Positions 18,475-48,870 of a DNA stretch of 64,000 nt are shown here, piece after piece. The stretch comes from a virus, in the IMG/VR virus record IMGVR_UViG_3300037258_000147, positions 32,001 through 96,000 of that record. One strand, written 5' to 3'. The notes under the pieces were generated by a model. That model was given only the letters and a program-made list of their open reading frames with translations. It ran no database searches and was not told the origin of the DNA. The stretch's first letter is position 1, and the number at the start of each line of letters is the position of its first letter. A program made the position numbers and the translations under genes.

Positions 18475-18553
18475 TGGTCCCCGAAGGGTGAATTGAACAC
18501 CCGATCTTTCGATTATCGGTCGAATGCTTTAAGCCAACTAAGCTATTCGGGGA
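18475..18553 (-). tRNA. tRNA-Ile(GAT)
   Basis: TTCGA-CCGATAA-TCGAA; C33; CCA end. Confidence 0.85.
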
Positions 18554-18631
18554 TGGTACCAGAGACTGGATTCGAACCAGTGAAATTTTCTTTGTAGGAG
18601 AAACGGTTTAGACCACTCACACCACTCTGGC
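18554..18631 (-). tRNA. tRNA-Val(TAC)
   Basis: TTTCT-CCTACAA-AGAAA; C33; CCA end. Confidence 0.85.
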
Positions 18632-18636
18632 AAATA

Positions 18637-18712
18637 TGGTGCTCTCGGCTAGGCTCGAACTAGCATATCCATTTACGGTACTTACCTTCGGAGGGTAAGC
18701 CGATACGGGAGC
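18637..18712 (-). tRNA. D-armless tRNA-like RNA, anticodon CCG (Arg)
   Basis: Acceptor GCTCCCG/CGAGAGC, 5-nt linker, 7-bp anticodon stem, T arm GCTAG-TTCGAGC-CTAGC, ACCA end. Confidence 0.75.
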
Positions 18713-18813
18713 AAAATTTTTACAGCGGGCCAATGCAATCCAGAACTCGTCAGTTCTTCGTGCCCCTAAGTCGTTAGACATGGACCATTGAATTATGCGC
18801 CCCCGCTGTAACT

Positions 18814-18889
18814 TGGAACCGCTGGCCAGACTCGAACTGGCATCTCCTCTTACTCTGTCTCGTTTAGGAAACGAGTGAGATACAGCGGC
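18814..18889 (-). tRNA. D-armless tRNA-like RNA, anticodon CCT (Arg)
   Basis: Acceptor GCCGCTG/CAGCGGT, CTCGT-TTCCTAA-ACGAG, T arm GCCAG-TTCGAGT-CTGGC, TCCA end. Confidence 0.75.
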
Positions 18890-18893
18890 AAAA

Positions 18894-18969
18894 TGGAGGC
18901 CCCGGAGAGATTCAAACTCCCGACCAATCGGGTAGAAACCGATGACTCTGTTCACTGAGTTACGAGGCC
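18894..18969 (-). tRNA. tRNA-Arg(TCT)
   Basis: ATCGG-TTTCTAC-CCGAT; CCA end. Confidence 0.88.
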
Positions 18970-18973
18970 GAAA

Positions 18974-19486
18974 TTAATAAGTTCTAAGAAGTCTAATGAT
19001 TTGGGCAGAGTCGGCGAACTTTATCCATTCCCCTTCAGCTAGGTGAACATCAAATCTTTCTAGTAGCCCCTTTTCTGCGGAGCGTCTATCCAAACAAAAC
19101 TCGTAGTTCTTGATGTAAAAAGCCTTATGCGGATCGTAGGTTTGATACGAAGCAAGCCTATCCTCAGTGTCAACCGTCATTCCAATCTTCAAATAATCTG
19201 GCCATGTCGGGTTGGCAATGATGTAGACTTGGCCTTCTTTGCAATCTTTCGGCTTGCATCCTCTGGAGAATTTCAATTTTAGTAAATTTAAGCCGTGTAT
19301 CTTCCTAGCCAAATTATAATCAAATTTTTTATTTCCTCCGATGCTCAAAGTTCCGTAAACTTTAACAGACTCAGATATCATCTCTTCTGTTATATCAAAA
19401 GCAGAATATGGAGGTATTATACCGCGTTCGGACAGAATTTCTATCGTCTTTAGGCTTTTTTCACTAGGATTGCTCAAAGGACTCAT
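18974..19486 (-). CDS. T5orf172/GIY-YIG domain protein
   Basis: GQVYIIANPTWPDYLKIGMT...RLASYQT...E...GEW motif. Confidence 0.8.
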   Translation of the reverse strand: MSPLSNPSEKSLKTIEILSERGIIPPYSAFDITEEMISESVKVYGTLSIGGNKKFDYNLARKIHGLNLLKLKFSRGCKPKDCKEGQVYIIANPTWPDYLKIGMTVDTEDRLASYQTYDPHKAFYIKNYEFCLDRRSAEKGLLERFDVHLAEGEWIKFADSAQIIRLLRTY

Positions 19487-20550: not shown

Positions 20551-20621
20551 TGGTCCCGAAGCGTGGAATCAAACCACTCACCTGGTCTTATGAGAACCAG
20601 TGCTGAATCATCAGCCTCGGG
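20551..20621 (-). tRNA. Compact 8/4 tRNA, anticodon CAT
   Basis: CCCGAGGC/GCTTCGGG acceptor, 6-bp anticodon stem, GTGG/CCAC T stem, 71 nt. Confidence 0.7.
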
Positions 20622-20627
20622 TAAAAC

Positions 20628-20702
20628 ATGGCAGGAGATGAAGGATTTGAACCCTCGAATCCCGGGTTGGAGCCGGGCGGTTTCCGTTAAGCCTAATCTC
20701 CC
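20628..20702 (-). tRNA. tRNA-Trp(CCA)
   Basis: CCCGG-CTCCAAC-CCGGG; GCCA end. Confidence 0.88.
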
Positions 20703-21121
20703 AAAAGATACTCGGATGCATTTTTTAGTAGAGAAGGATCGTCCTTAAAATGACCAATCCCTAGATTGCAACTCCTGCACAACAATCCTCTTACTTTTCC
20801 CGTAAGATGATCGTGATCAACATGCAAAGGTTTGTCGTCTTTCTTACCACAAATCTTACAAATCCCATTCTGCTGCGAAAATAAGAATAGGTATTCCGCT
20901 CCCGTCATCCCATATCTATTTGCTATTTTATAGCTAGGATGTGCTTTGTTCCATTTGTTTGCTTTAGAAATATATTTTTCTATGTTTCTGAGATAATGTT
21001 CTCTACGATAGTCGGCCTGGCAATCTCGGCATTGTTTATGCCTTATCCCTCTCGCTTCATCTCTAAAAGCAAAATCTTGTTCTTCGTCTTTAGAAGTATG
21101 ACATTTAGAACAAATACTCAT
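20693..21121 (-). CDS. Endonuclease VII-like (His-Me) nuclease
   Basis: QNGICKICG...LHVDHDH.TGKVRGLLC..CN..IG motif; stop codon overlaps the tRNA-Trp 5' end. Confidence 0.88.
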   Translation of the reverse strand: MSICSKCHTSKDEEQDFAFRDEARGIRHKQCRDCQADYRREHYLRNIEKYISKANKWNKAHPSYKIANRYGMTGAEYLFLFSQQNGICKICGKKDDKPLHVDHDHLTGKVRGLLCRSCNLGIGHFKDDPSLLKNASEYLLGD

Positions 21122-21136
21122 TTTATTATCAAGAAG

Positions 21137-21213
21137 TGGTAGCCCTAGTAGGATTCGAACCTACACTATGACTCGTTCGTAGCGAGTATGACTTTCCAGT
21201 TGCCGATAGGGCC
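21137..21213 (-). tRNA. tRNA-Arg(ACG)
   Basis: ACTCG-CTACGAA-CGAGT; CCA end. Confidence 0.88.
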
Positions 21214-22674: not shown

Positions 22675-22745
22675 TGGAGCCGATGTACGGAGTTCAACCG
22701 TCAGGAACTCTTTACAGGAGAGTGCCGCTTGCGAAGCACATCGGC
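22675..22745 (-). tRNA. Compact 8/4 tRNA, anticodon TGT (Thr)
   Basis: Perfect 8-bp GCCGATGT/ACATCGGC, D arm GCTT-CGC-AAGC, T stem ACGG/CCGT, 71 nt. Confidence 0.75.
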
Positions 22746-22829
22746 TAACTTTTCGGTGGTATCTTCCCTCAAACCCTGATACTAGGTCCCTCATCTGAGT
22801 CCTTGCAGACCCCAGCACCGATGAAATTC

Positions 22830-24592: not shown

Positions 24593-24669
24593 TGGTAGGG
24601 ATGGTGAGGCTCTAACTCACTAGGACGTGGGTGAAGGCCACGGCACTCGAACACTTTGTATTCATCCCC
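24593..24669 (-). tRNA. tRNA-Glu(TTC)
   Basis: CGTGG-CCTTCAC-CCACG; C33; divergent D and T loops. Confidence 0.75.
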
Positions 24670-25514: not shown

Positions 25515-25589
25515 TGGTAGCCTACCAGAGAATCAAACTCTGTTCTCGATCTTGAGAAAATCGCATCCTAATCAGTAGAAGAGTAGGCC
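25515..25589 (-). tRNA. tRNA-Glu(CTC)
   Basis: CGATT-TTCTCAA-GATCG; CCA end. Confidence 0.85.
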
Positions 25590-25713: not shown

Positions 25714-25791
25714 TGGTTGCGGCTCTCGGGAGTTGAACCCGGTATCCCAAGGGTATGAGTCTTGGATGGTCATCCGTTCCACTCAGCCGCA
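25714..25791 (-). tRNA. tRNA-Met(CAT), initiator-like acceptor stem
   Basis: TGCGGCT/AGCCGCA-ACCA; CAAGA-CTCATAC-CCTTG. Confidence 0.78.
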
Positions 25792-26406
25792 TCAAAATTT
25801 AAAAATTCCTGCATCATATTCCCAATGATGATTTGGACACAAGGGTAGGAGGTTATCAATATCATTGATCTCTCTTATCAAAGTGTCAGTAGAAAAAGAG
25901 GAAACTGATCTAATATGAGCAACGTCAACGTGATTCGAATACCCGCAAACACAGCATTTCTTCTCTTTACCCCCGTCTAGGTATGTCTGTCTGGCATGTC
26001 GTTGAATCGAACTTCTAGCAGATTGATACCCGCCTCTTCGACCAAACAACTCGCCTTTCGTCCACCCCGAAAGTTTCCCAGTTCTAGTTTTCTTTAAGCC
26101 TCGAACTTTCTTGCACTCTTCAGAACAAGTAAACTTTCTTTTAGGAACAGGAGCCCCACAGACCCGACATCTACGAGAAATATTCTTGTTTCGTTTCCTT
26201 TTCTTAGGAAATTTTGCATTGTTAAAACTCGCAGAACAAGTTCTGTTACAGAACTTCTTTTGTCGAATTTCAGATACTTTCCTTTTTGGATCAATAGTAA
26301 TCATTGACAAACAATGCTTACAAAAATTAGGGTTTGCTAAGTACCTTTCCTCCGCTCTCTGCCTTTGCAGTAAAGCGGAGACTATCGAACCACTTGATTT
26401 TGCCAT
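25792..26406 (-). CDS. HNH endonuclease
   Basis: Zn-finger CxxC repeats; DVAHI...N.IDNL..LCPNHHWEYD. Confidence 0.85.
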   Translation of the reverse strand: MAKSSGSIVSALLQRQRAEERYLANPNFCKHCLSMITIDPKRKVSEIRQKKFCNRTCSASFNNAKFPKKRKRNKNISRRCRVCGAPVPKRKFTCSEECKKVRGLKKTRTGKLSGWTKGELFGRRGGYQSARSSIQRHARQTYLDGGKEKKCCVCGYSNHVDVAHIRSVSSFSTDTLIREINDIDNLLPLCPNHHWEYDAGIFKF

Positions 26407-26745: not shown

Positions 26746-26833
26746 TGGCGGAAGATGAAGTAATCGAAACCTTGTCCATTTAATGGACAGCATCGGGTTC
26801 GAGCCGATTTGACCGCCTTGGTCGCCATCTTCC
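26746..26833 (-). tRNA. tRNA-Ser(CGA), 8/4-type
   Basis: GGAAGATG/CATCTTCC acceptor; ATCGG-CTCGAAC-CCGAT; variable arm is the GTCC-N7-GGAC palindrome. Confidence 0.8.
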
Positions 26834-26869
26834 GTTAACTTGGCCATGTTAATTATCATGGCCGTGATA

Positions 26870-37285: not shown

Positions 37286-39469
37286 ATGAAACTCGTTTCA
37301 AACGCAACTACAATCGCAGAGTTCCGCGCAGATGTTCTCCAATACATCGAACTTCGCGCCGAGCAAAACCGAGCGGCTGAAAGGTCGGTCACCGGAAAGA
37401 ACATCAAGAAGATGTATATTCATGCCGCGTCTGAGATTCAGTCTATCGCCGATGATCTGCGCTATATGGACTCTGGGAATAAGGTAGCGTAATGCGTATT
37501 TTCCGGTCTCCAATATCCCGGATCAGTTGGAGGAGCGGGAATTTTCTTACATCCCAGGCGCGATCCTTGTCTGAGGTAATCAAGGGTCCGGCTAGACACC
37601 TTACGGCAAAGCCGGATTTTGTCTGCGCTGCCTGTACAAAGAATATGCACTACGCATGTGTTAGTAAAAGGTGCGAGTGCGGAAAGAAGCATTTATGACC
37701 CAAAATTTTTCCTTGACAGACCAACTAGGGTTGGCTATAATCATTGTAGCAATTTTGGAGTTGTGGTTTTTGTGGTAACTGGAATCTGTCCGAAAAATGG
37801 ACAAAAGAGGGGTTATGGAAATCAAAACCAGCACACTAGGGCCGTCTTGGGACGACTTTGAAACCGCAAGAATGAAAAGGGAAGACGAAAACGTAGCGCG
37901 GCGGGTAGCAGACTACCAGCGGCGCGGCGGATGGTTCGACCAAACCGAAGAGGAATTGTGATAGTCCCTCTGCAATACTGCTGTGACGCGCCCGGATGTA
38001 CGCAGGTTCGGACGGATACGAACCGATGGTGGGTCGTCTACACGGGATACCCCAGCCATATCGGAGTGTATACGTGGGATCACGCCGAGGCGGATCACAA
38101 ACTGGACAGCACGGACTCCCGCCACTTCTGCGGCCAAACTCACGCTCTGCAATTCGTATCATCTGAGATGGGGGTAAAATGAAACTCTCCTTCGAGGATT
38201 TTGTCTACTACTCGGAATGGCTTGAGATAGTTCGGATGGGGAATTTTGTCGGCGAGTATGAATTACGAAAAATTATTCTCAAGAAAATCCGAGAATTCAG
38301 ACGAGGCCGCCCACTTTTTGCCGGACCCTACGGGGATAAATCCGCGTGGGCTGGAATGGTCCGCAATTGGTACAAGGCATATGTGGAGGAAGCATGAAAC
38401 ACACGGAGATATTTTATTCTCTCTGCGAGGCCCACACTATTCTGTGTCTAGCCTGCGATAGGGCCGGAAACGCGGCGGATGTTTGGTGGATTCCCTTTTT
38501 CGGGCGGAACCGCTGGCGAGCCTACCGCACTGCACTCCATGCTATGGAGTACCTGCAAAAACAGGTAGGCGAAGAATACTCGCTGGCTGTTGAGGAGCTT
38601 TGCCAATGACCAATCTTTCAACCAGAAAGTCAAAGTGTATTGTCCAGTTTTCGGACACGATTCGGGAGCGGGGCCGGTTACGTGAAGTCATTATGGAGTT
38701 CTCACCCTACGGTATTAAAGTCCGACTCAAGGGCATGAGAAGTTCATACGATATTTCCCCGGCCTCTATCTACAACTCTGCTGTGCTTAAGTTTGTGGCA
38801 GCACAAAAATCTGAGAAGAAGGCCAAGAAAGCGGGGAGGAAATGAGGCAAGTGCGAAATAAATTATGGCTGCATAGTGGCTACCGGATCGGAGAAAACGG
38901 ATTCATATTTAACCGTCCAGCCTGTCGGTTGTGTAAATTGTTCGACGCCCGAGTTTGCGAAAATAAGTATTGCGTTTTTTGCTTTGTCGGACTCTTGGAG
39001 ATTCGGGGGATATGGGGATCGAGACGACGGCGGACTACGGGGGCTATCGTGCGCAGGACTCGAAAGATTTACAGGAACTCAGTTAGTCCGAAAAATGGAC
39101 AACCTGAATGACCAATCAGCTAGGCGATCTAACAGCCCGACAAGAAGCCTTACGGCATCTACGTTCCAGATGGATGAAATTATTCTTGACTAAGCCCTGG
39201 ACTTCGGATAACGTAAGGGAGAGAGCTTTGATTTGTGAGAAGATTGTTAAGTGGGGTGCAAAGTGAAAACCTACGAAGTAAAAGTACCGATTGCCGGACA
39301 CGCTTATGTTTATGTCGAGGCTGACTCGGAAGAAGAGGCTATCACAACGGCTGTGAGTGCGGCTGAGTTGCAGGATTTAGGCGGCTGGGAAGCCCTGCGG
39401 AAATTCAACATGGGCAACGTCTGTTACTGCCCGCAACCTTGGGAAGCAGAAGCTGCGGAAATGGAATAA
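37286..39469 (+). CDS. Cluster of small hypothetical genes (37286-37492, 37492-37698, 37958-38182, 38179-38397, 38394-38609, 38606-38845, 39263-39469)
   Basis: Translationally coupled short ORFs. Confidence 0.6.
37713..37741 (+). promoter_or_regulatory. Consensus sigma70 promoter
   Basis: TTGACA-17 nt-TATAAT. Confidence 0.8.
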
Positions 39470-39471
39470 CC

Positions 39472-40545
39472 GTGACTACCAAGCGCCGAGCAACATACCA
39501 ATATGACGGAACCGTAGGCGGGAAACGTCTACGGTTTTCGCTCGGAACTACTGACTCAAAATCTGCCGCGAAGTTAGAGCAGCGGATTGGGTTTGCTATC
39601 GCAGAAGGCCCGAAACCCGAAGTCTGGGAGAGCCTGAAACCTTCATTACCTCTAAGGAGCTATCAAGTCTTGACCTCAGTTATCGGCCTTACGGCGTTAC
39701 CAAATCTACGTGAATTTGAAGACACTTGGGAAAAACATTTAGACACGAGAAGGCGGCTTGGAGAAATTACCGAGTCTACTTACGACCTTTACGCTAAAGC
39801 GTCCAGGGATTTCTTCGCCCGAATGATCGAACTGAATGTCGGGAAAATGGACGAACTTACTCCAAGCGCCGTAGACGAGTATCTGGTTTGGAGACTTGAA
39901 AGCATAAAGGCAAAGGGAGGGTCTGGCCGAGGAGTAGTTACCATATCCAAGATACTTGTCCAGATTTTTGAATTGGGTATTAGGGACGGGCTGCTCAAAA
40001 CGTCGCCACTTAAGCACAAGTATAGACCAGACACAGACCCGAAAGCTCCTGATCCGTTTACCGATTCCGAAGTCCAGAAAATGGAAAATTCAGCGGATGG
40101 AATTGACCGGCTTGCTTTTCTTTTGTTGAAATGGACAGGACTAAGAAAGTCGGACGCGAGTTCGGTTACTTGGTCGGCCATAAACTGGGAGAAAGAAACT
40201 CTGACGTGGGAAACTAAAAAGCGCCATAAACAAGTCATAGTACCTTTACATGCCTCGTTAATGGCCGAGTTGAAAAAATATCGGGACGATTCAGATGTCC
40301 AAATTTTACCAATGGCCCAGAACCGGCTGTATCAACTCGTAGTAAATCTCGGAAAGAAATCTGGGGTCGAAAACTGTCACCCTCACAGATTTCGGGCATG
40401 GTTTGTATGTCGTTTGCTGGCTAAAGGTGCGAGTTTATTTGACGTGTCCAAAATGATCGGAGACTCCCACCAGGTTGTGGAAAAATATTATTCTGCTATT
40501 ACCGATGGACAACAAGAACGGGTCCGTGGTATACTAGCGGCGTAG
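39472..40545 (+). CDS. int: Tyrosine recombinase/integrase
   Basis: TGLRKSD, K, HPHRFR, GDS...Y catalytic set; N-terminal arm-binding-like segment. Confidence 0.88.
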   Translation: MTTKRRATYQYDGTVGGKRLRFSLGTTDSKSAAKLEQRIGFAIAEGPKPEVWESLKPSLPLRSYQVLTSVIGLTALPNLREFEDTWEKHLDTRRRLGEITESTYDLYAKASRDFFARMIELNVGKMDELTPSAVDEYLVWRLESIKAKGGSGRGVVTISKILVQIFELGIRDGLLKTSPLKHKYRPDTDPKAPDPFTDSEVQKMENSADGIDRLAFLLLKWTGLRKSDASSVTWSAINWEKETLTWETKKRHKQVIVPLHASLMAELKKYRDDSDVQILPMAQNRLYQLVVNLGKKSGVENCHPHRFRAWFVCRLLAKGASLFDVSKMIGDSHQVVEKYYSAITDGQQERVRGILAA

Positions 40546-45660: not shown

Positions 45661-47849
45661 TGGACAAAGTGTGGTTGGACTACGAAAGCCGAAGTACGGT
45701 TTCTCTAGAAGAAAAAGGATTGGATAATTACGTCAAGGGGCCTACTCAGGTCCTGCTTGCGGCCTACGCCTTTAATGACTTGGCTCCTAAGCTGTGGCAA
45801 CCACACCTTAGCCCAGAGATGCCTAAGGACCTGAAAGACGCCCTACTCGACCCCTTCATGCAAGTCTGGAGTTGGAACACGAGTTTCGAACGACAGGTAA
45901 CCAAGCACGTTTTAGGCATTGACAAGCCGATTGAAGAATGGCGGGACCCGATGTGCAATGCTCGGTATCTGGGACTTCCTGGATATCTGGAAGACGCCGG
46001 AAAAATCCTCGGGCTCAAAGACTCCCAAGCCAAAATCAAAGATGGTAGCCGACTAATAAAGTTGTTTTGCGAGCCTGTTGATTCGGGTGGCCGAGAAACT
46101 CTGTTTGGAATCTCAGAGCCGACATTCAATAGCTGGCACACCCACCCAAAGGATTGGGAATTGTTCTGTAAGTATTGCAAACAAGATGTGGTTGCGGAAA
46201 GAGTGCTTGCCCAAAAAATGTCGAAGTTTCCTCTTCCTCAGGAGGAACTAGAGACTTGGTTCTTGGATCAGCATATTAATGCACGGGGATGGCCGGTAGA
46301 TTTACCCACGGTCGAAGGTGCTCGGAAAATTGTCGAATTAGAATTGAAACCCTTAGTAGCCCGTCTGAAAGAACTAAGTGGATTGGACAATGTAAATTCT
46401 AGAAACCAAATCCTGGAATGGGTTTCGGAGCGCGGATACGTCTTCTCAAGTCTTGGTAAAGATTTTGTTGCGCGCGCGCTTGCTGGGGAATGTAATCTAA
46501 CCCCAGAGTGCCGAGAGGTTCTCGAAATCCGAGGACAAACCGCAAAATCTAGTGTGTCTAAGTACACAGCTTTAGCCGATATGACCTCCTCAGACGCTAG
46601 GATACGTCACCAGTACACCTATTACGGGGCACATACAGGCCGATGGGCCGCGCACGGCGTAAACATGGGTAATTTGTTTAAGCCGACAAAAGAAGTTGAA
46701 AATAAACTGGGCTTGGCCGTTAATCTTGTCCGAAAAATGGACTTTGAGGCAATACGAAAAGAATTTAGCAAGCCTATGGAAGTCGCTGCTTCGGTCCAGC
46801 GGTCGGCCTTTCGAGCCCCTGAGGGTTTTAAATTCGTGTGGGCGGACCTCGCGGGCATCGAAAACCGGGGGCTAATGTATCTCTCTCATTGCGAGGCCCT
46901 AAAGAAGGTCTACGAAGGAAAATTTACCTACTACGGACCCGACTGTCCAGAAAAAGAAATATTAAACGGACAAGAGTTCGCGCTAGACCCGTACCTAATG
47001 TTTGCTGTTCGCATGTTTAATATGAGCTACCGCGATTTATGGATAGAGTGGAAAATCAAGGGGGACAAGACCAAGAGAGATTTGTGCAAAGCTCCTGTAC
47101 TGGGCGGAGGATACGCTCTCGGAGCCGGAGAAGAAGAGATAGATAAAAAAACTGGACTACCATACTGGACCGGTTTGATGGGCTACGGAAGAAAAATGGG
47201 AATCGAAATCCCCCACGACTTAGCCGAGCAATCTATCAAGGTTCTCCGCGAAGAATGGAACGAAGTTGTCTGGCTCTGGAAAGACATGGAAAAAGCCTTC
47301 GCATTTGCTGTCCGGCATCCTGGTCATTTAACCGGGGTTGGGTTGCCTCATACCAAGCGAGAGGAGGAATATTTCGAGGAAAAGGGCCGGAAAATTTATG
47401 AGCCGATAATCTCGTTTCTGTGTCATGGTGCCAAAATCCTTGAAATGATTCTGCCGTCTGGACGGTCTTTATTTTACTTTGACCCCCGAGTAGCGTTTGA
47501 AGAAAAAGAATGGAAGGGAAGAAAATACCAGCAAGACACGCTGTACTACAAATCCAAGGACCCGAAGACCAAACAATGGGTGGAAATGGATACGTTTGGG
47601 GGCCACTTGGTTGAAAATGGGGATCAGGCTATATGCCGAGATGTGCTGGTCCATGGGATGAAAAAAGCGGATAAAATGGGATTTGAAATATGCGGGTCTA
47701 CATATGACGAGGTGATTACCTTAGTTCCTTTAAACAGTCCTCTTGGGGTAAAAGAACTTTGCGAGTGCCTTACCGACCCGCCTCTGTTTTGTGGACTAGA
47801 TTTGCCGTTAGCCGCCGAAGGAATTGAGGATTTCATCTACCATAAATAA
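45660..47849 (+). CDS. DNA polymerase, family A
   Basis: Exonuclease DYE and YCKQDV; HTGRW; motif A DLAGIE; motif B R..K...LG.GY; motif C TYDE. Confidence 0.9.
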   Translation: MDKVWLDYESRSTVSLEEKGLDNYVKGPTQVLLAAYAFNDLAPKLWQPHLSPEMPKDLKDALLDPFMQVWSWNTSFERQVTKHVLGIDKPIEEWRDPMCNARYLGLPGYLEDAGKILGLKDSQAKIKDGSRLIKLFCEPVDSGGRETLFGISEPTFNSWHTHPKDWELFCKYCKQDVVAERVLAQKMSKFPLPQEELETWFLDQHINARGWPVDLPTVEGARKIVELELKPLVARLKELSGLDNVNSRNQILEWVSERGYVFSSLGKDFVARALAGECNLTPECREVLEIRGQTAKSSVSKYTALADMTSSDARIRHQYTYYGAHTGRWAAHGVNMGNLFKPTKEVENKLGLAVNLVRKMDFEAIRKEFSKPMEVAASVQRSAFRAPEGFKFVWADLAGIENRGLMYLSHCEALKKVYEGKFTYYGPDCPEKEILNGQEFALDPYLMFAVRMFNMSYRDLWIEWKIKGDKTKRDLCKAPVLGGGYALGAGEEEIDKKTGLPYWTGLMGYGRKMGIEIPHDLAEQSIKVLREEWNEVVWLWKDMEKAFAFAVRHPGHLTGVGLPHTKREEEYFEEKGRKIYEPIISFLCHGAKILEMILPSGRSLFYFDPRVAFEEKEWKGRKYQQDTLYYKSKDPKTKQWVEMDTFGGHLVENGDQAICRDVLVHGMKKADKMGFEICGSTYDEVITLVPLNSPLGVKELCECLTDPPLFCGLDLPLAAEGIEDFIYHK

Positions 47850-47907
47850 TCCAGATCGCGGATTGACAACTCGAAACATGTGGTATAATGCGAACAAAGG
47901 AGAAAAA

Positions 47908-48870
47908 GTGGAACATATCCCTTTCCCCGAAATTCATCAATTTCGGAACACGATTAGAACTGTGCGAGAACGAGCAGAATGCGACGGAGTTCCTCTTCCA
48001 ATCATTACTTTTGTGGGATCGGTGAAATTGCACGGAACTAACGCTTCGATTGTGTTTCCCGAATCGGGAGGGTACTATTGTCAGTCTCGCTCTCACGTAA
48101 TCACACCAGGACAAGACAACGCTGGATTTGCTCGTTGGGTCGAAAACAACAAAGAATTGTTCGAGCGTCTAGAGAAGTCCGGAGTGATTCTATATGGAGA
48201 GTGGTGCGGGCAAGGAATTCAAAAGGGCGTGGCCATATCACATATGCCGAAGAAATTCATCGTGTTTTCTGTCCGAAAACTGGACAATTTGTCTTGGTTT
48301 TCCAAACTGGGGGTCTGCGTCCTGCTGGAAGGGTTACTTTGTATCTATGATTATCCAAATTGGACCTTGGATATTGACTTTTCTCGTTCCGAGGACTCTC
48401 AGAATCGCTTGGTAGAATTGACCACTGCTGTCGAAACCGAGTGCCCTGTAGGAAAGGCTTTCGGGGTTTCTGGAGTAGGAGAAGGCGTAGTTTGGTGGCC
48501 TGAATCTCATCCGACATTCAACACCGAGGGGTTGGCCTTCAAGGTAAAGGGAGAAAAACATTCCGAATCCAAAGTAAAGAGTCTAGCTTCCGTGGATGTG
48601 GAAAAATTGGAAACCGTCAAGGAATTGGTAAACACAATCATAACCGATCACCGTTTGGAAAAGAAACTAGATTCTCTCCAAGAGCGAGGCATTTCTTTTG
48701 ACATCAAAAATACTGGGCAGTTTCTAAAGCTGATAGGGGCCGACGTTTGGAAGGAAGAATCTGACACCATTCTGGCCTCTGGATTCAAAGAAAGCGAGAT
48801 CATGGGAGCCGTCCAGAAACGGGCGAAACAGTGGTGGATGGAGCAACTAGCGAATGTGGCCGTGGTCTAA
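47908..48870 (+). CDS. RNA ligase (Rnl2-like)
   Basis: KLHGTN, YGEWCG.GIQ, GEGVVW, FKVK; GTG start after AAGGAG. Confidence 0.82.
   Translation: MEHIPFPEIHQFRNTIRTVRERAECDGVPLPIITFVGSVKLHGTNASIVFPESGGYYCQSRSHVITPGQDNAGFARWVENNKELFERLEKSGVILYGEWCGQGIQKGVAISHMPKKFIVFSVRKLDNLSWFSKLGVCVLLEGLLCIYDYPNWTLDIDFSRSEDSQNRLVELTTAVETECPVGKAFGVSGVGEGVVWWPESHPTFNTEGLAFKVKGEKHSESKVKSLASVDVEKLETVKELVNTIITDHRLEKKLDSLQERGISFDIKNTGQFLKLIGADVWKEESDTILASGFKESEIMGAVQKRAKQWWMEQLANVAVV

What the first reader, a model, noticed from the sequence alone, without database searches (positions are those of the whole stretch)
18637..18889. Two D-armless Arg-anticodon tRNA-like RNAs sharing a rearranged fold
Seen: both are 76 nt with an acceptor stem, canonical T arm and CCA, but only 5-7 nt separate the acceptor from the anticodon arm (CCG and CCT). 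In both, the linker (TATC / ATCTC) pairs with the segment just before the T arm (GATA / GAGAT), and a D-loop-like GG (AAATGG / AGAGG) lies 3' of the anticodon arm, as if the anticodon arm were nested inside the D arm. The two sequences differ but keep the same pairing. Known: bacterial ArgRS uses D-loop A20 as an identity element, and D-armless tRNAs are mainly mitochondrial. Inference: either a new tRNA topology serving the rare CGG/AGG codons, or anticodon decoys.
Basis: partly seen in the sequence, partly recalled or inferred. Interest (0 to 1): 0.82.

Follow-up and report, generated by a model that had tools for sequence, protein, structure and literature searches.

The report
Rewired non-cloverleaf phage arginine tRNAs
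Two genes in this soil phage's tRNA cluster are very probably working arginine tRNAs (for codons AGG and CGG) that keep every standard tRNA part but join the D-arm pieces in a different order, so that the anticodon arm sits inside the D-stem; I found this design in no paper.

Summary
The two 76-nt RNAs are real: A at 18814-18889(-) with anticodon CCU, and B at 18637-18712(-) with anticodon CCG. ARAGORN and Rfam's tRNA model both miss them. They belong to a family: I found 23 distinct members in 12 viral tRNA arrays, plus unannotated copies in two cultured phages (Brevundimonas phage Kikimora and Xanthomonas phage XacN1).

The conserved, covarying helix pairs positions 11-14 with 34-37 and encloses the anticodon hairpin. 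It is followed by an intact arginine-type D-loop (U-A-R-n-n-G-G-A-n-A-U) that runs straight into the T-arm. In effect, canonical positions 10-48 are circularly permuted.

All tertiary-contact nucleotides and the ArgRS determinant (A after GG, C35, G/U36) are kept. In every array, rewired and ordinary Arg tRNAs carry non-overlapping anticodons. This phage has ordinary UCU and ACG plus rewired CCU and CCG, and no other tRNAs. It uses CGG and AGG often.

Most likely they are functional decoder tRNAs (about 0.7). Expression and charging are untested. This scan has already noted the same class on other genomes, and my derivation agrees with those notes. I found no description in the literature.

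The parts
18814..18889 (-). Element A: rewired tRNA-Arg(CCU), 76 nt, CCA encoded
   Evidence: Sequence. CM R1 scores 86.4 bits. Not called by ARAGORN or Rfam.
18883..18889 (-). A: acceptor stem 5' strand GCCGCUG. It pairs with 18818-18824 (CAGCGGU, G1.U72). The discriminator is U at 18817 and CCA is at 18814-18816.
   Evidence: All 7 acceptor pairs show compensatory changes in the family.
18876..18879 (-). A: 5' strand of the D-like stem (CUCA, positions 11-14). C11, U12 and C13 pair with G37, A36 and G35.
18859..18875 (-). A: anticodon stem-loop CUCGU-UUCCUAA-ACGAG. The anticodon CCU is at 18866-18868.
   Evidence: All 5 pairs covary.
18853..18856 (-). A: 3' strand of the D-like stem (AGAG, positions 34-37), after a 2-nt bulge at 18857-18858.
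18842..18852 (-). A: relocated D-loop UAAGAGGAGAU (equivalent to A14 A15 n n G18 G19 A20 n A21 U48). It runs directly into the T stem.
   Evidence: Compare the ArgRS identity set in PMC9976931.
18825..18841 (-). A: T arm GCCAG-UUCGAGU-CUGGC
18637..18712 (-). Element B: rewired tRNA-Arg(CCG), 76 nt, CCA encoded, with a C5.A68 mismatch in the acceptor stem
   Evidence: Sequence. CM R1 scores 84.1 bits. Not called by ARAGORN or Rfam.
18699..18702 (-). B: 5' strand of the D-like stem (CGGC, positions 11-14). C11, G12 and G13 pair with G37, C36 and C35. C14 can pair with G32, which extends the anticodon stem to 6 bp.
18682..18698 (-). B: anticodon stem-loop UUACC-CUCCGAA-GGUAA. The anticodon CCG is at 18689-18691.
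18676..18679 (-). B: 3' strand of the D-like stem (ACCG, positions 34-37)
18665..18675 (-). B: relocated D-loop UAAAUGGAUAU
18648..18664 (-). B: T arm GCUAG-UUCGAGC-CUAGC. The acceptor 3' strand is at 18641-18647, the discriminator A at 18640 and CCA at 18637-18639.
18713..18813 (-). 101-nt spacer between A and B. It is closed by a 10-bp stem (UUACAGCGGG/CCCGCUGUAA). It is not part of the tRNAs and its function is unknown.
   Evidence: Fold z-score is -3.2. No Rfam hit. No tRNA by ARAGORN except a poor fold at a relaxed threshold. No exact homolog in viral contigs. In the syntenic array L003 the two rewired tRNAs are only 5 nt apart.
18894..18969 (-). Ordinary cloverleaf tRNA-Arg(UCU), immediately upstream of A (4-nt spacer)
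21137..21213 (-). Ordinary cloverleaf tRNA-Arg(ACG). Together with UCU, A and B it completes a non-redundant set of four Arg anticodons.

Best explanation
A and B are genes for functional elongator arginine tRNAs, tRNA-Arg(CCU) reading AGG and tRNA-Arg(CCG) reading CGG. Their core is rewired.

Architecture:
- After U8-A9-N10 the chain enters a 3-4 bp helix (positions 11-14) that continues directly into the anticodon stem-loop.
- It leaves the anticodon stem through a 2-3 nt bulge and completes the helix (positions 34-37).
- It then forms an ordinary arginine-type D-loop (U-A14-R15-n-n-G18-G19-A20-n-A21) and a Y48-like base, and runs straight into the T arm.
- In effect, canonical positions 10-48 are circularly permuted: [D 5' strand + D-loop][D 3' strand + anticodon arm + variable] becomes [D 3'-like strand + anticodon arm][D 5'-like strand + D-loop].

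Inferred consequences:
- The D-like helix stacked on the anticodon stem gives a helix about 10 layers long, as the D/anticodon stack does in the normal L-shape.
- The relocated D-loop can still make the U8-A14, R15-Y48, G18-psi55 and G19-C56 contacts.
- The molecule would then present the usual surfaces to RNase P, ArgRS (A20, C35, G/U36), EF-Tu (7/5 acceptor branch) and the ribosome.
- The genes would be co-transcribed with the minus-strand tRNA array and cut out like their neighbours.

Shown here: the sequence anatomy, family conservation, covariation and anticodon complementarity. Inferred: the L-shaped fold, processing, arginylation and decoding.
For: 1. Family. A loop-and-motif pattern found 12 copies in 11 viral contigs. 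CM R1 then found 23 distinct members in 12 arrays: Arg CCU 9, CCG 4, UCU 6, ACG 3, and Ile UAU 1. Members of the 76-nt class are only 49-75% identical to each other apart from one 92% pair (A vs B 58%), yet every helix is kept.

2. Covariation.
- 96.8% of cells are paired, 18 of 21 pairs have double changes, and 0 of 500 shuffles reach the observed values.
- On 23 sequences all four pairs of the D-like helix have double changes: 13-41 is GC 15, CG 4, AU 2, UA 2; 14-40 is GC 14, CG 3, AU 2, UA 1.
- RNAalifold finds the same helix unaided.

3. Tertiary and identity nucleotides.
- U8 and A9 are invariant although they were not imposed by the first pattern.
- A follows GG in 21 of 22 Arg members. 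Among the 8 Arg members not selected by a pattern that fixed GGA, 7 have it.
- The single Ile(UAU) member has GGU, which matches U20 in the bacterial Ile identity set.
- R15/N48 is A/U in 19, G/C in 3 and G/G in 1 (one row corrected by eye).

4. Anticodon complementarity. In none of the 12 arrays does a rewired Arg tRNA duplicate the anticodon of an ordinary one. In this 97%-complete genome the only Arg tRNAs are ordinary UCU and ACG plus rewired CCU and CCG, and there is no tRNA outside the array.

5. Demand. CGG occurs 8.7 per 1000 codons and AGG 5.9 per 1000 in 82 long ORFs.

6. Gene-like context. Spacers to flanking tRNAs are 4-5 nt, and CCA is encoded as in the neighbours.

7. Cultured phages. 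Unannotated rewired Arg(ACG) copies occur in Brevundimonas phage Kikimora and Xanthomonas phage XacN1. In Kikimora it is the only Arg tRNA that ARAGORN or R1 finds in the 60 kb around the array. XacN1 has one ordinary UCU besides it.
Against: - There is no expression, processing, modification or charging data.
- No 3D model could be computed.
- B has a C5.A68 mismatch in its acceptor stem, which is unique in the family.
- In A the D-like helix is only 3 bp. A could therefore sample other folds.
- Several conserved D-loop columns in the 76-nt class were fixed by my search patterns, so their invariance is partly circular. Independent support comes only from the 9 CM-found members.
- The loci are partial contigs, so the complementarity count is complete only for this genome.
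- A's discriminator is U, not the A/G that is strongest for E. coli ArgRS.
Confidence: 0.72

Rival explanations
1. These are working Arg tRNAs whose rewiring was selected as counter-defence. The changed D-arm/anticodon-arm connectivity keeps the ArgRS, EF-Tu and ribosome surfaces but escapes host tRNA-targeting nucleases. The phage can then still read Arg codons when host tRNA-Arg is cut. This refines the best explanation and does not exclude it.
For: - Phage tRNAs are documented to evade tRNA-targeting defences through sequence changes (PMC10264068, PMC11555353, found).
- The same array carries other departures from tRNA norms: C33 instead of U33 in tRNA-Ile(GAU) and tRNA-Val(UAC) (alignments), and further candidates seen only in ARAGORN's mitochondrial mode.
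- The phage encodes an RNA ligase.
- Rewiring is confined to Arg and Ile among roughly 250 tRNAs in the arrays examined.
Against: - No Arg-specific nuclease is known for the unknown host.
- Only 2 of this phage's 4 Arg tRNAs are rewired, and A and B keep an ordinary U33 anticodon loop, which is the usual cleavage target.
- The restriction to Arg and Ile can also be explained by descent. UCU to UAU is one substitution, as is each step among the Arg anticodons.
Confidence: 0.25
2. These are non-translating tRNA mimics. They would act as decoys or sponges for anticodon nucleases, modification enzymes or other tRNA-binding host factors, or as regulatory tRNA-like RNAs. They would not be charged or would not be used by the ribosome.
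For: - The non-cloverleaf core might not be accepted by all parts of the translation machinery.
- No charging data exist.
Against: - A decoy for anticodon-loop enzymes would not need a conserved 7/5 acceptor branch, encoded CCA, canonical T-loop, an A20-type D-loop, or U8/A14/R15-Y48.
- It would also not be expected to fill exactly the Arg anticodons that the array's ordinary tRNAs lack.
Confidence: 0.1
3. The fold is the one the first reader drew: the linker (positions 8/9-13) pairs with the segment just before the T arm (44-48), and a 12-nt D-loop-like bulge lies between the anticodon stem and that helix.
For: The complementary letters are present in A (AUCUC/GAGAU) and B (UAUC/GAUA). In A the fold's energy is close to that of the family fold, and the MFE uses it.
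Against: - Across the family these helices are 53% and 65% paired, with no compensatory change. Most members have UACCGG, which cannot pair with the conserved GGAGAU.
Confidence: 0.04
4. These are decayed tRNA pseudogenes or a chance resemblance.
For: Standard finders do not call them. B has an acceptor mismatch.
Against: - There are 23 diverged members with all helices maintained by compensatory change.
- Segment lengths are identical.
- The strict 21-base-specified pattern gave only one chance match, with no CM support, in 185,579 prokaryote genomes, against 14 loci in viral contigs.
Confidence: 0.01

Closest known systems
Canonical class I bacterial and phage tRNA-Arg (Rfam RF00005), for example the neighbouring tRNA-Arg(UCU) at window 18894-18969 and E. 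coli tRNA-Arg
   Same: - 7-bp acceptor stem, 5-bp T stem and T-loop GTTCRA.
- 7-nt anticodon loop with U33 and A37.
- D-loop motif A14-R15-n-n-G18-G19-A20-n-A21.
- U8 and A9, encoded CCA, a 76-nt length, and a position inside a tRNA operon.
   Different: - There is no D hairpin between position 9 and the anticodon arm.
- One D-stem strand precedes the anticodon hairpin and the other follows it, with the D-loop after it and only about 1 nt before the T stem.
- The usual 4-5 nt variable loop is reduced to a 2-3 nt bulge.
- RF00005 gives no hit even at E<=10, and ARAGORN gives none.
Metazoan mitochondrial D-armless tRNAs (mammalian mt-tRNA-Ser(AGY), nematode mt-tRNAs; reviewed in PMC4394434 and PMC9976931)
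   Same: No D hairpin lies between the acceptor and anticodon stems, and the anticodon helix is extended.
   Different: Those tRNAs are shortened (roughly 55-65 nt), have lost the G18G19/T-loop elbow nucleotides, and work with a specialised mitochondrial machinery. Here every D-arm part is retained but relocated, the length is a normal 76 nt, and the setting is bacterial translation.
Circularly permuted tRNA genes of the red alga Cyanidioschyzon merolae (Soma et al. 2007; from my own knowledge, not read here)
   Same: The logic of circular permutation of tRNA parts.
   Different: In that case the whole gene is permuted (3' half before 5' half) and processing through a circular intermediate restores an ordinary cloverleaf. 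Here the termini are normal and only the internal block 10-48 is permuted, so the mature RNA itself would be non-cloverleaf.
allo-tRNAs and other 8/4 or 9/3 tRNAs of bacteria and phages (Mukai et al., PMC5389517)
   Same: They are natural non-standard tRNA architectures found in bacteria and phages and overlooked by standard finders. UAU and Arg anticodons are frequent among them.
   Different: allo-tRNAs alter the acceptor/T branch (8/4, 9/3) and keep the cloverleaf order with a long variable arm. A and B keep 7/5 and change the strand order of the core.
Phage tRNAs with anticodon-loop changes that evade host tRNA nucleases (PMC10264068)
   Same: They are phage-array tRNAs that depart from host tRNA norms, possibly under selection by defence systems.
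   Different: Those are point changes in the anticodon loop of ordinary cloverleaves. Here the loop is ordinary and the core topology differs.

Membership tests
tRNA (Rfam RF00005 / cloverleaf elongator tRNA) | Score at or above the RF00005 gathering threshold (29 bits), or a call by a standard tRNA finder | tested here: not met
   No RF00005 match over 18637-18889 at gathering threshold or at E<=10. ARAGORN in bacterial mode gives nothing. Its mitochondrial mode gives only a 45-nt fragment of B.
tRNA (Rfam RF00005 / cloverleaf elongator tRNA) | Cloverleaf order: a D hairpin between position 9 and the anticodon arm | tested here: not met
   Only 7 nt lie between the acceptor and anticodon stems. 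The covarying helix 11-14/34-37 encloses the anticodon hairpin.
tRNA (functional definition) | 12-bp acceptor/T branch (7+5), T-loop T54-T55-C56-R57-A58, and a 3' NCCA | tested here: met
   In the 23-member alignment G53 and C61 are invariant, the T-loop begins TTC in all, R57 is G in 22 and A in 1, and A58 is in all. CCA is encoded in 17 of the 23.
tRNA (functional definition) | 7-nt anticodon loop with U33 and a purine at 37, on a 5-bp stem | tested here: met
   UUCCUAA in A and CUCCGAA in B. All 5 stem pairs covary.
tRNA (functional definition) | Core tertiary nucleotides U8, A14, R15-Y48, G18, G19, A21 | tested here: inconclusive
   All are present in the expected order in the relocated D-loop. 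R15/N48 is A/U in 19, G/C in 3 and G/G in 1. Their spatial contacts could not be modelled, and some columns were fixed by the search pattern.
tRNA (functional definition) | Processed, aminoacylated and used by the ribosome | not testable with these tools
   This needs an experiment.
Bacterial tRNA-Arg identity (ArgRS) | A20 in the D-loop, C35, G36 or U36, and A/G73 (PMC9976931) | tested here: inconclusive
   C35 with U36 (A) or G36 (B) is met. An A directly follows GG in A, B and 21 of 22 Arg members, whereas the Ile member has U; equating it with position 20 is an inference. The discriminator is A in B and U in A.
Mitochondrial-type D-armless tRNA | D arm replaced by a short loop, elbow nucleotides (G18G19) lost, overall length shortened | tested here: not met
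   A GG-containing D-loop and both D-stem strands are present, and the length is 76 nt.
allo-tRNA (8/4 or 9/3) | 8- or 9-bp acceptor stem with a 4- or 3-bp T stem, and a long variable arm | tested here: not met
   The configuration is 7/5 and the post-anticodon segment forms no hairpin.
Permuted tRNA gene (C. merolae type) | The 3' half is encoded upstream of the 5' half, and the mature RNA is a normal cloverleaf | tested here: not met
   The acceptor 5' strand is at the 5' end and CCA is at the 3' end of each gene. Only the internal block is reordered.

The most novel reading that the evidence does not exclude
The rewired core is a counter-defence design. By permuting positions 10-48 the phage tRNA keeps the ArgRS, EF-Tu and ribosome interfaces but is no longer a substrate for host nucleases or modifying toxins that recognise the D-arm/anticodon-arm geometry of tRNA-Arg (and tRNA-Ile). 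If so, bacterial translation naturally runs on non-cloverleaf tRNAs during infection, and the cloverleaf is not a requirement of the bacterial ribosome.
Probability: 0.25. Interest if true: 0.92.

Novelty: new variant of a known kind. Interest (0 to 1): 0.8.

Why it matters
- Every tRNA known to serve bacterial translation is a cloverleaf, and gene finders, Rfam and textbooks build on that. A conserved family of phage tRNAs with an internally permuted core would show that the L-shape can be reached by another strand path and still be accepted by RNase P, ArgRS, EF-Tu and the ribosome.
- It would mean that phage tRNA inventories, and codon-usage or anti-defence analyses built on them, systematically miss Arg (and some Ile) tRNAs. 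In Kikimora the array appears to lack Arg altogether unless the rewired gene is counted.
- It gives tRNA engineers a natural alternative scaffold that may be orthogonal to some tRNA-binding enzymes.
- It gives a testable link to tRNA-targeting defence systems.
- Two cultured phages carry members of the family, which makes the question directly testable.

Tried and rejected
- Megablast and blastn of the region against 50,697 phage records found no match to A or B. Only the ordinary tRNA-Arg(UCU) matched.
- The search for related loci with the downstream 260-aa ORF gave one contig that is cut just before the array.
- Sequencing runs: no RNA holder is listed. The only full holder is a soil metagenome that may be the source of this DNA.
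- The genome-contig scan with the 76-nt general pattern gave one hit, in Sporosarcina, with no CM or ARAGORN support, so it is a chance match. The pattern is strict, so this does not exclude looser relatives in bacteria.
- The nearest cultured relative by large terminase is Tunturiibacter phage Tunturi_3 (26% identity). It has no R1 hit. The host of this phage remains unknown.
- Gordonia phage OneUp, Rhodococcus phage Weasels2 and Sphingobium phage Lacusarx have no R1 hit.
- A pattern for rewired Ile(UAU) found only identical copies of one gene plus one doubtful hit. The A20 versus U20 contrast therefore rests on a single Ile sequence here.
- In-silico un-permutation test: I moved the block 'D 5'-like strand + D-loop' back in front of the other strand.
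  - ARAGORN then called 19 of 23 sequences, and 16 of 16 in the 76/77-nt class, as tRNA-Arg or tRNA-Ile. It called 0 of 23 originals.
  - ARAGORN also accepted 64% of constructs with a shuffled block, and a construct with shifted boundaries. At -ps105 the counts were 15/16 un-permuted, 131/320 shuffled and 3/16 reversed.
  - The test therefore has weak discriminating power and I give it little weight.
- The 101-nt spacer has no Rfam hit, no homolog and only a poor ARAGORN fold at a relaxed threshold.
- The genome search 'relatives' is not available for a virus record.
- The overlapping 112-aa ORF at 18617-18955 has no Pfam or PHROG hit, and I do not regard it as a gene.
- Seven full-text literature searches found no description of this topology.
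Full report
**Setting**

The window is bases 32001-96000 of a 104,680-bp IMG/VR virus record, 97% complete by CheckV and 47.7% G+C. A soil metagenome holds the sequence. The minus strand between 18.4 and 27.8 kb carries a tRNA array. ARAGORN tRNAs there and Rfam at gathering score. Homing-endonuclease-like genes are interspersed: T5orf172 at 18974-19486, endonuclease VII at 20693-21121 and HNH at 25792-26406. No tRNA lies outside the array. By large terminase the nearest cultured phage is Tunturiibacter phage Tunturi_3 at 26% identity, so the host is unknown.

**The observation**

Two 76-nt sequences lie on the minus strand between the ordinary tRNA-Arg(UCU) (18894-18969) and a tRNA-Val(UAC) (18554-18631):
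- A: 18814-18889.
- B: 18637-18712.

A 101-nt spacer separates them. Both have the same segment lengths:

| Segment | Length (nt) |
|---|---|
| Acceptor 5' strand | 7 |
| Linker | 7 |
| Anticodon stem 5' strand | 5 |
| Anticodon loop | 7 |
| Anticodon stem 3' strand | 5 |
| Post-anticodon segment | 17 |
| T stem 5' strand | 5 |
| T loop | 7 |
| T stem 3' strand | 5 |
| Acceptor 3' strand | 7 |
| Discriminator | 1 |
| CCA | 3 |

The loops UUCCUAA and CUCCGAA give U33, A37 and anticodons CCU and CCG. The T arms are canonical. Spacers to the neighbouring tRNAs are 4-5 nt, and CCA is encoded as in the neighbours. ARAGORN in bacterial mode does not find them. Rfam's tRNA model does not find them even at E<=10.

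**A family, and a different helix**

I scanned viral contigs with a pattern that fixes only loop and single-stranded letters: the anticodon loop YTCCKAA, then GTAA-NN-GGA-N-AT, then GTTCRA at fixed spacing, about 21 specified bases. It returned 11 loci with 12 copies, all inside tRNA arrays.

In most copies the linker reads UACCGG, which cannot pair with the conserved GGAGAU in front of the T arm.
- Positions 9-13 with 44-48 (as in A): 53% paired, no compensatory change.
- Positions 8-11 with 44-47 (as in B): 65% paired, no compensatory change.

Instead, positions 11-14 pair with 34-37: CGGC/GCCG, CCC/GGG, CUGC/GCAG, CGUU/GACG, CAG/CUG, and in this window CUC/GAG (A) and CGG/CCG (B).
- Pair 12-36 is GC 9, UA 2, CG 1. 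Pair 13-35 is GC 9, CG 2, UA 1.
- The whole structure is 96.8% paired, with 18 of 21 pairs showing double changes.
- No shuffle out of 500 reaches the observed values, and sliding the partners by 1-3 columns drops pairing to 35-46%.
- RNAalifold, given only the alignment, predicts the same helix.
In A the two are about equal.

**More members**

A covariance model built from the 12 sequences (R1) found further members that the pattern could not find:
- Arg(UCU) and Arg(CCU) of 76-77 nt.
- An 80-83-nt class with Arg(ACG) and Arg(UCU).
- One Ile(UAU).

That makes 23 distinct sequences in 12 arrays. On this larger alignment, which is fitted to the model and therefore leans towards it, all four D-like pairs have double changes. 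Identities within the 76-nt class are 49-75% apart from one 92% pair, and A and B share 58%. The family is therefore old and under structural selection. Only A and B are of this type in the present genome.

**What the rearrangement is**

The segment after the 3' strand of the new helix reads U-A-R-n-n-G-G-A-n-A-U. That is the D-loop of a bacterial tRNA-Arg (A14, R15, 16, 17, G18, G19, A20, 20a, A21) followed by a Y48-like base, and then the T stem begins.

The chain order is:
1. U8-A9-N10.
2. A strand equivalent to 22-25.
3. The anticodon hairpin.
4. A 2-3-nt bulge.
5. A strand equivalent to 10-13.
6. The D-loop.
7. One nucleotide.
8. The T arm.

This is a circular permutation of canonical positions 10-48. 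It could arise by tandem duplication of the core followed by two deletions (inference).

Geometrically, the 3-4 bp helix stacked on the 5-6 bp anticodon stem reproduces the D/anticodon stack of about 10 layers. The D-loop leaves the helix at the elbow-proximal end, as it does in a normal tRNA. The bulge sits where the 26-44 hinge is. All of this is inference, because I could not compute a 3D model.

**Signs of function**

*Identity and tertiary nucleotides.* According to PMC9976931, bacterial ArgRS relies on A20, C35, U/G36 and A/G73.
- An A follows GG in 21 of 22 Arg members, including 7 of the 8 Arg members not selected by a pattern that fixed it.
- The one Ile(UAU) member has GGU, in line with U20 of the bacterial Ile identity set.
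- The R15/N48 combination is A/U in 19, G/C in 3 and G/G in 1. The three G/C cases are all Arg(UCU) of the long class and may be a single event (one row corrected by eye).
- U8 and A9 are invariant.

*Anticodon sets are complementary.*

| Array | Ordinary Arg anticodons | Rewired Arg anticodons |
|---|---|---|
| This genome | UCU, ACG | CCU, CCG |
| L003 | UCU, ACG | CCU, CCG |
| L002 | CCG, ACG, UCU | CCU |
| L004 | UCU, CCU, ACG | CCG |
| L010 | ACG, UCU, CCU | CCG |
| L007 | CCG | ACG, UCU, CCU |
| L014 | ACG, CCG | UCU, CCU |
| L009 | ACG | CCU, UCU |

. There is no duplication in any array. If the anticodons were drawn at random, the chance of no overlap in nine of these arrays would be about 7e-6. 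That figure is my own arithmetic. It is only a rough guide, because the arrays are related and most loci are partial.

*Codon demand.* This phage uses CGG for 19% and AGG for 13% of its Arg codons. An ACG (inosine) tRNA does not read CGG (established wobble rules).

**Cultured phages**

R1 also hits two cultured phages at places that their GenBank records leave unannotated:
- Brevundimonas phage vB_BpoS-Kikimora, ON529857.1 224110-224192, 51.8 bits, anticodon ACG.
- Xanthomonas phage XacN1, AP018399.1 47790-47869, and again in the terminal repeat, 44.8 bits, anticodon ACG.

In Kikimora, ARAGORN finds 24 tRNAs in the array and none for Arg in 60 kb. The rewired gene lies 30 nt from tRNA-Asn. 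XacN1 has only an ordinary Arg(UCU) besides it. These phages offer an experimental system.

**Limits**

- There is no evidence on expression or charging.
- B carries a C.A mismatch in the acceptor stem.
- Part of the D-loop conservation in the 76-nt class was imposed by my patterns.
- A strict scan of 185,579 prokaryote genomes found only one chance match. This geometry looks phage-borne, but looser relatives in bacteria are not excluded.
- An in-silico un-permutation made ARAGORN of 23 sequences as tRNA-Arg or tRNA-Ile, against 0 of 23 originals. Shuffled-block controls were also often accepted, so I give this test little weight.

**Comparison with what is known**

- These RNAs work like class I tRNA-Arg but fail the cloverleaf and RF00005 membership tests.
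- They are not mitochondrial-type D-armless tRNAs, because all D-arm parts are kept.
- They are not allo-tRNAs, because the acceptor/T branch is 7/5.
- They are not permuted genes of the red-alga type, because the termini are normal.
- Seven full-text searches found no paper describing this topology.
- Earlier notes of this scan describe the same class on other genomes. I reached the same model from the sequences before reading them.

**Verdict**

A and B are real, conserved and very probably functional arginine tRNAs with a rewired, non-cloverleaf core. They are a new structural variant of a known kind of molecule, of high interest, and await biochemical proof.

Noticed in passing
window 18713-18813 (-): A 101-nt spacer between A and B folds into a closed structure with a 10-bp terminal stem (z -3.2). 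It has no CCA, no Rfam hit, and no homolog in the loci or viral contigs. In the syntenic array L003 the two rewired tRNAs are 5 nt apart, so this is an insertion. It may be a stable tRNA-cluster RNA of unknown function.
   Followed up: partly
window 18475-18631 (-): tRNA-Ile(GAU) and the next tRNA have C33 instead of the near-universal U33 (loops CCGAUAA and CCUACAA). ARAGORN labels the second one Cys(aca), but the Rfam alignment gives Val(UAC).
   Followed up: partly
window 20551-20621, 22676-22746, 24593-24669, 25515-25589, 25714-25791, 26764-26834 (-): Further tRNA candidates (Met/CAU x2, Thr/UGU, Glu/UUC, Glu/CUC, Ser/CGA) are seen only in ARAGORN's mitochondrial mode. One of them (25718-25790) scores 26.4 bits with RF00005, below threshold. 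The array seems rich in non-standard tRNAs.
   Followed up: no
window 18974-19486, 20693-21121, 25792-26406 (-): Homing-endonuclease-like genes (T5orf172/GIY-YIG-like, endonuclease VII, HNH) lie between the tRNA genes, one of them directly upstream of the Arg(UCU)-A-B group.
   Followed up: partly
window 47824-48870 (+): An RNA ligase gene (PF09414, phrog_548) lies next to the DNA polymerase. I looked for no polynucleotide kinase partner beyond the neighbouring ORFs. It may be relevant to tRNA repair.
   Followed up: partly
window 39439-40545 (+): A tyrosine integrase-like gene (phrog_1) in a 105-kb phage with about 30 tRNAs suggests a temperate lifestyle.
   Followed up: no
L002:2468-2557, L003:1298-1390, L004:5451-5539: Related arrays carry 89-93-nt tRNAs with a UAU anticodon and a long variable arm, reminiscent of allo-tRNA(UAU).
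   Followed up: no
L004:6503-6806, L040:1201-1621; L008:2089-2160, L040:47-205: Some arrays that hold rewired tRNAs also encode a tmRNA and amber-suppressor-type tRNAs (anticodon CUA).
   Followed up: no
L007:2799-2889, L011:7176-7265: ARAGORN does report the 82-83-nt rewired Arg(UCU) genes, but as 90-91-nt tRNAs that start 8 nt upstream and are folded as if they had a long variable arm. Some family members may therefore be annotated with wrong ends in public records.
   Followed up: partly
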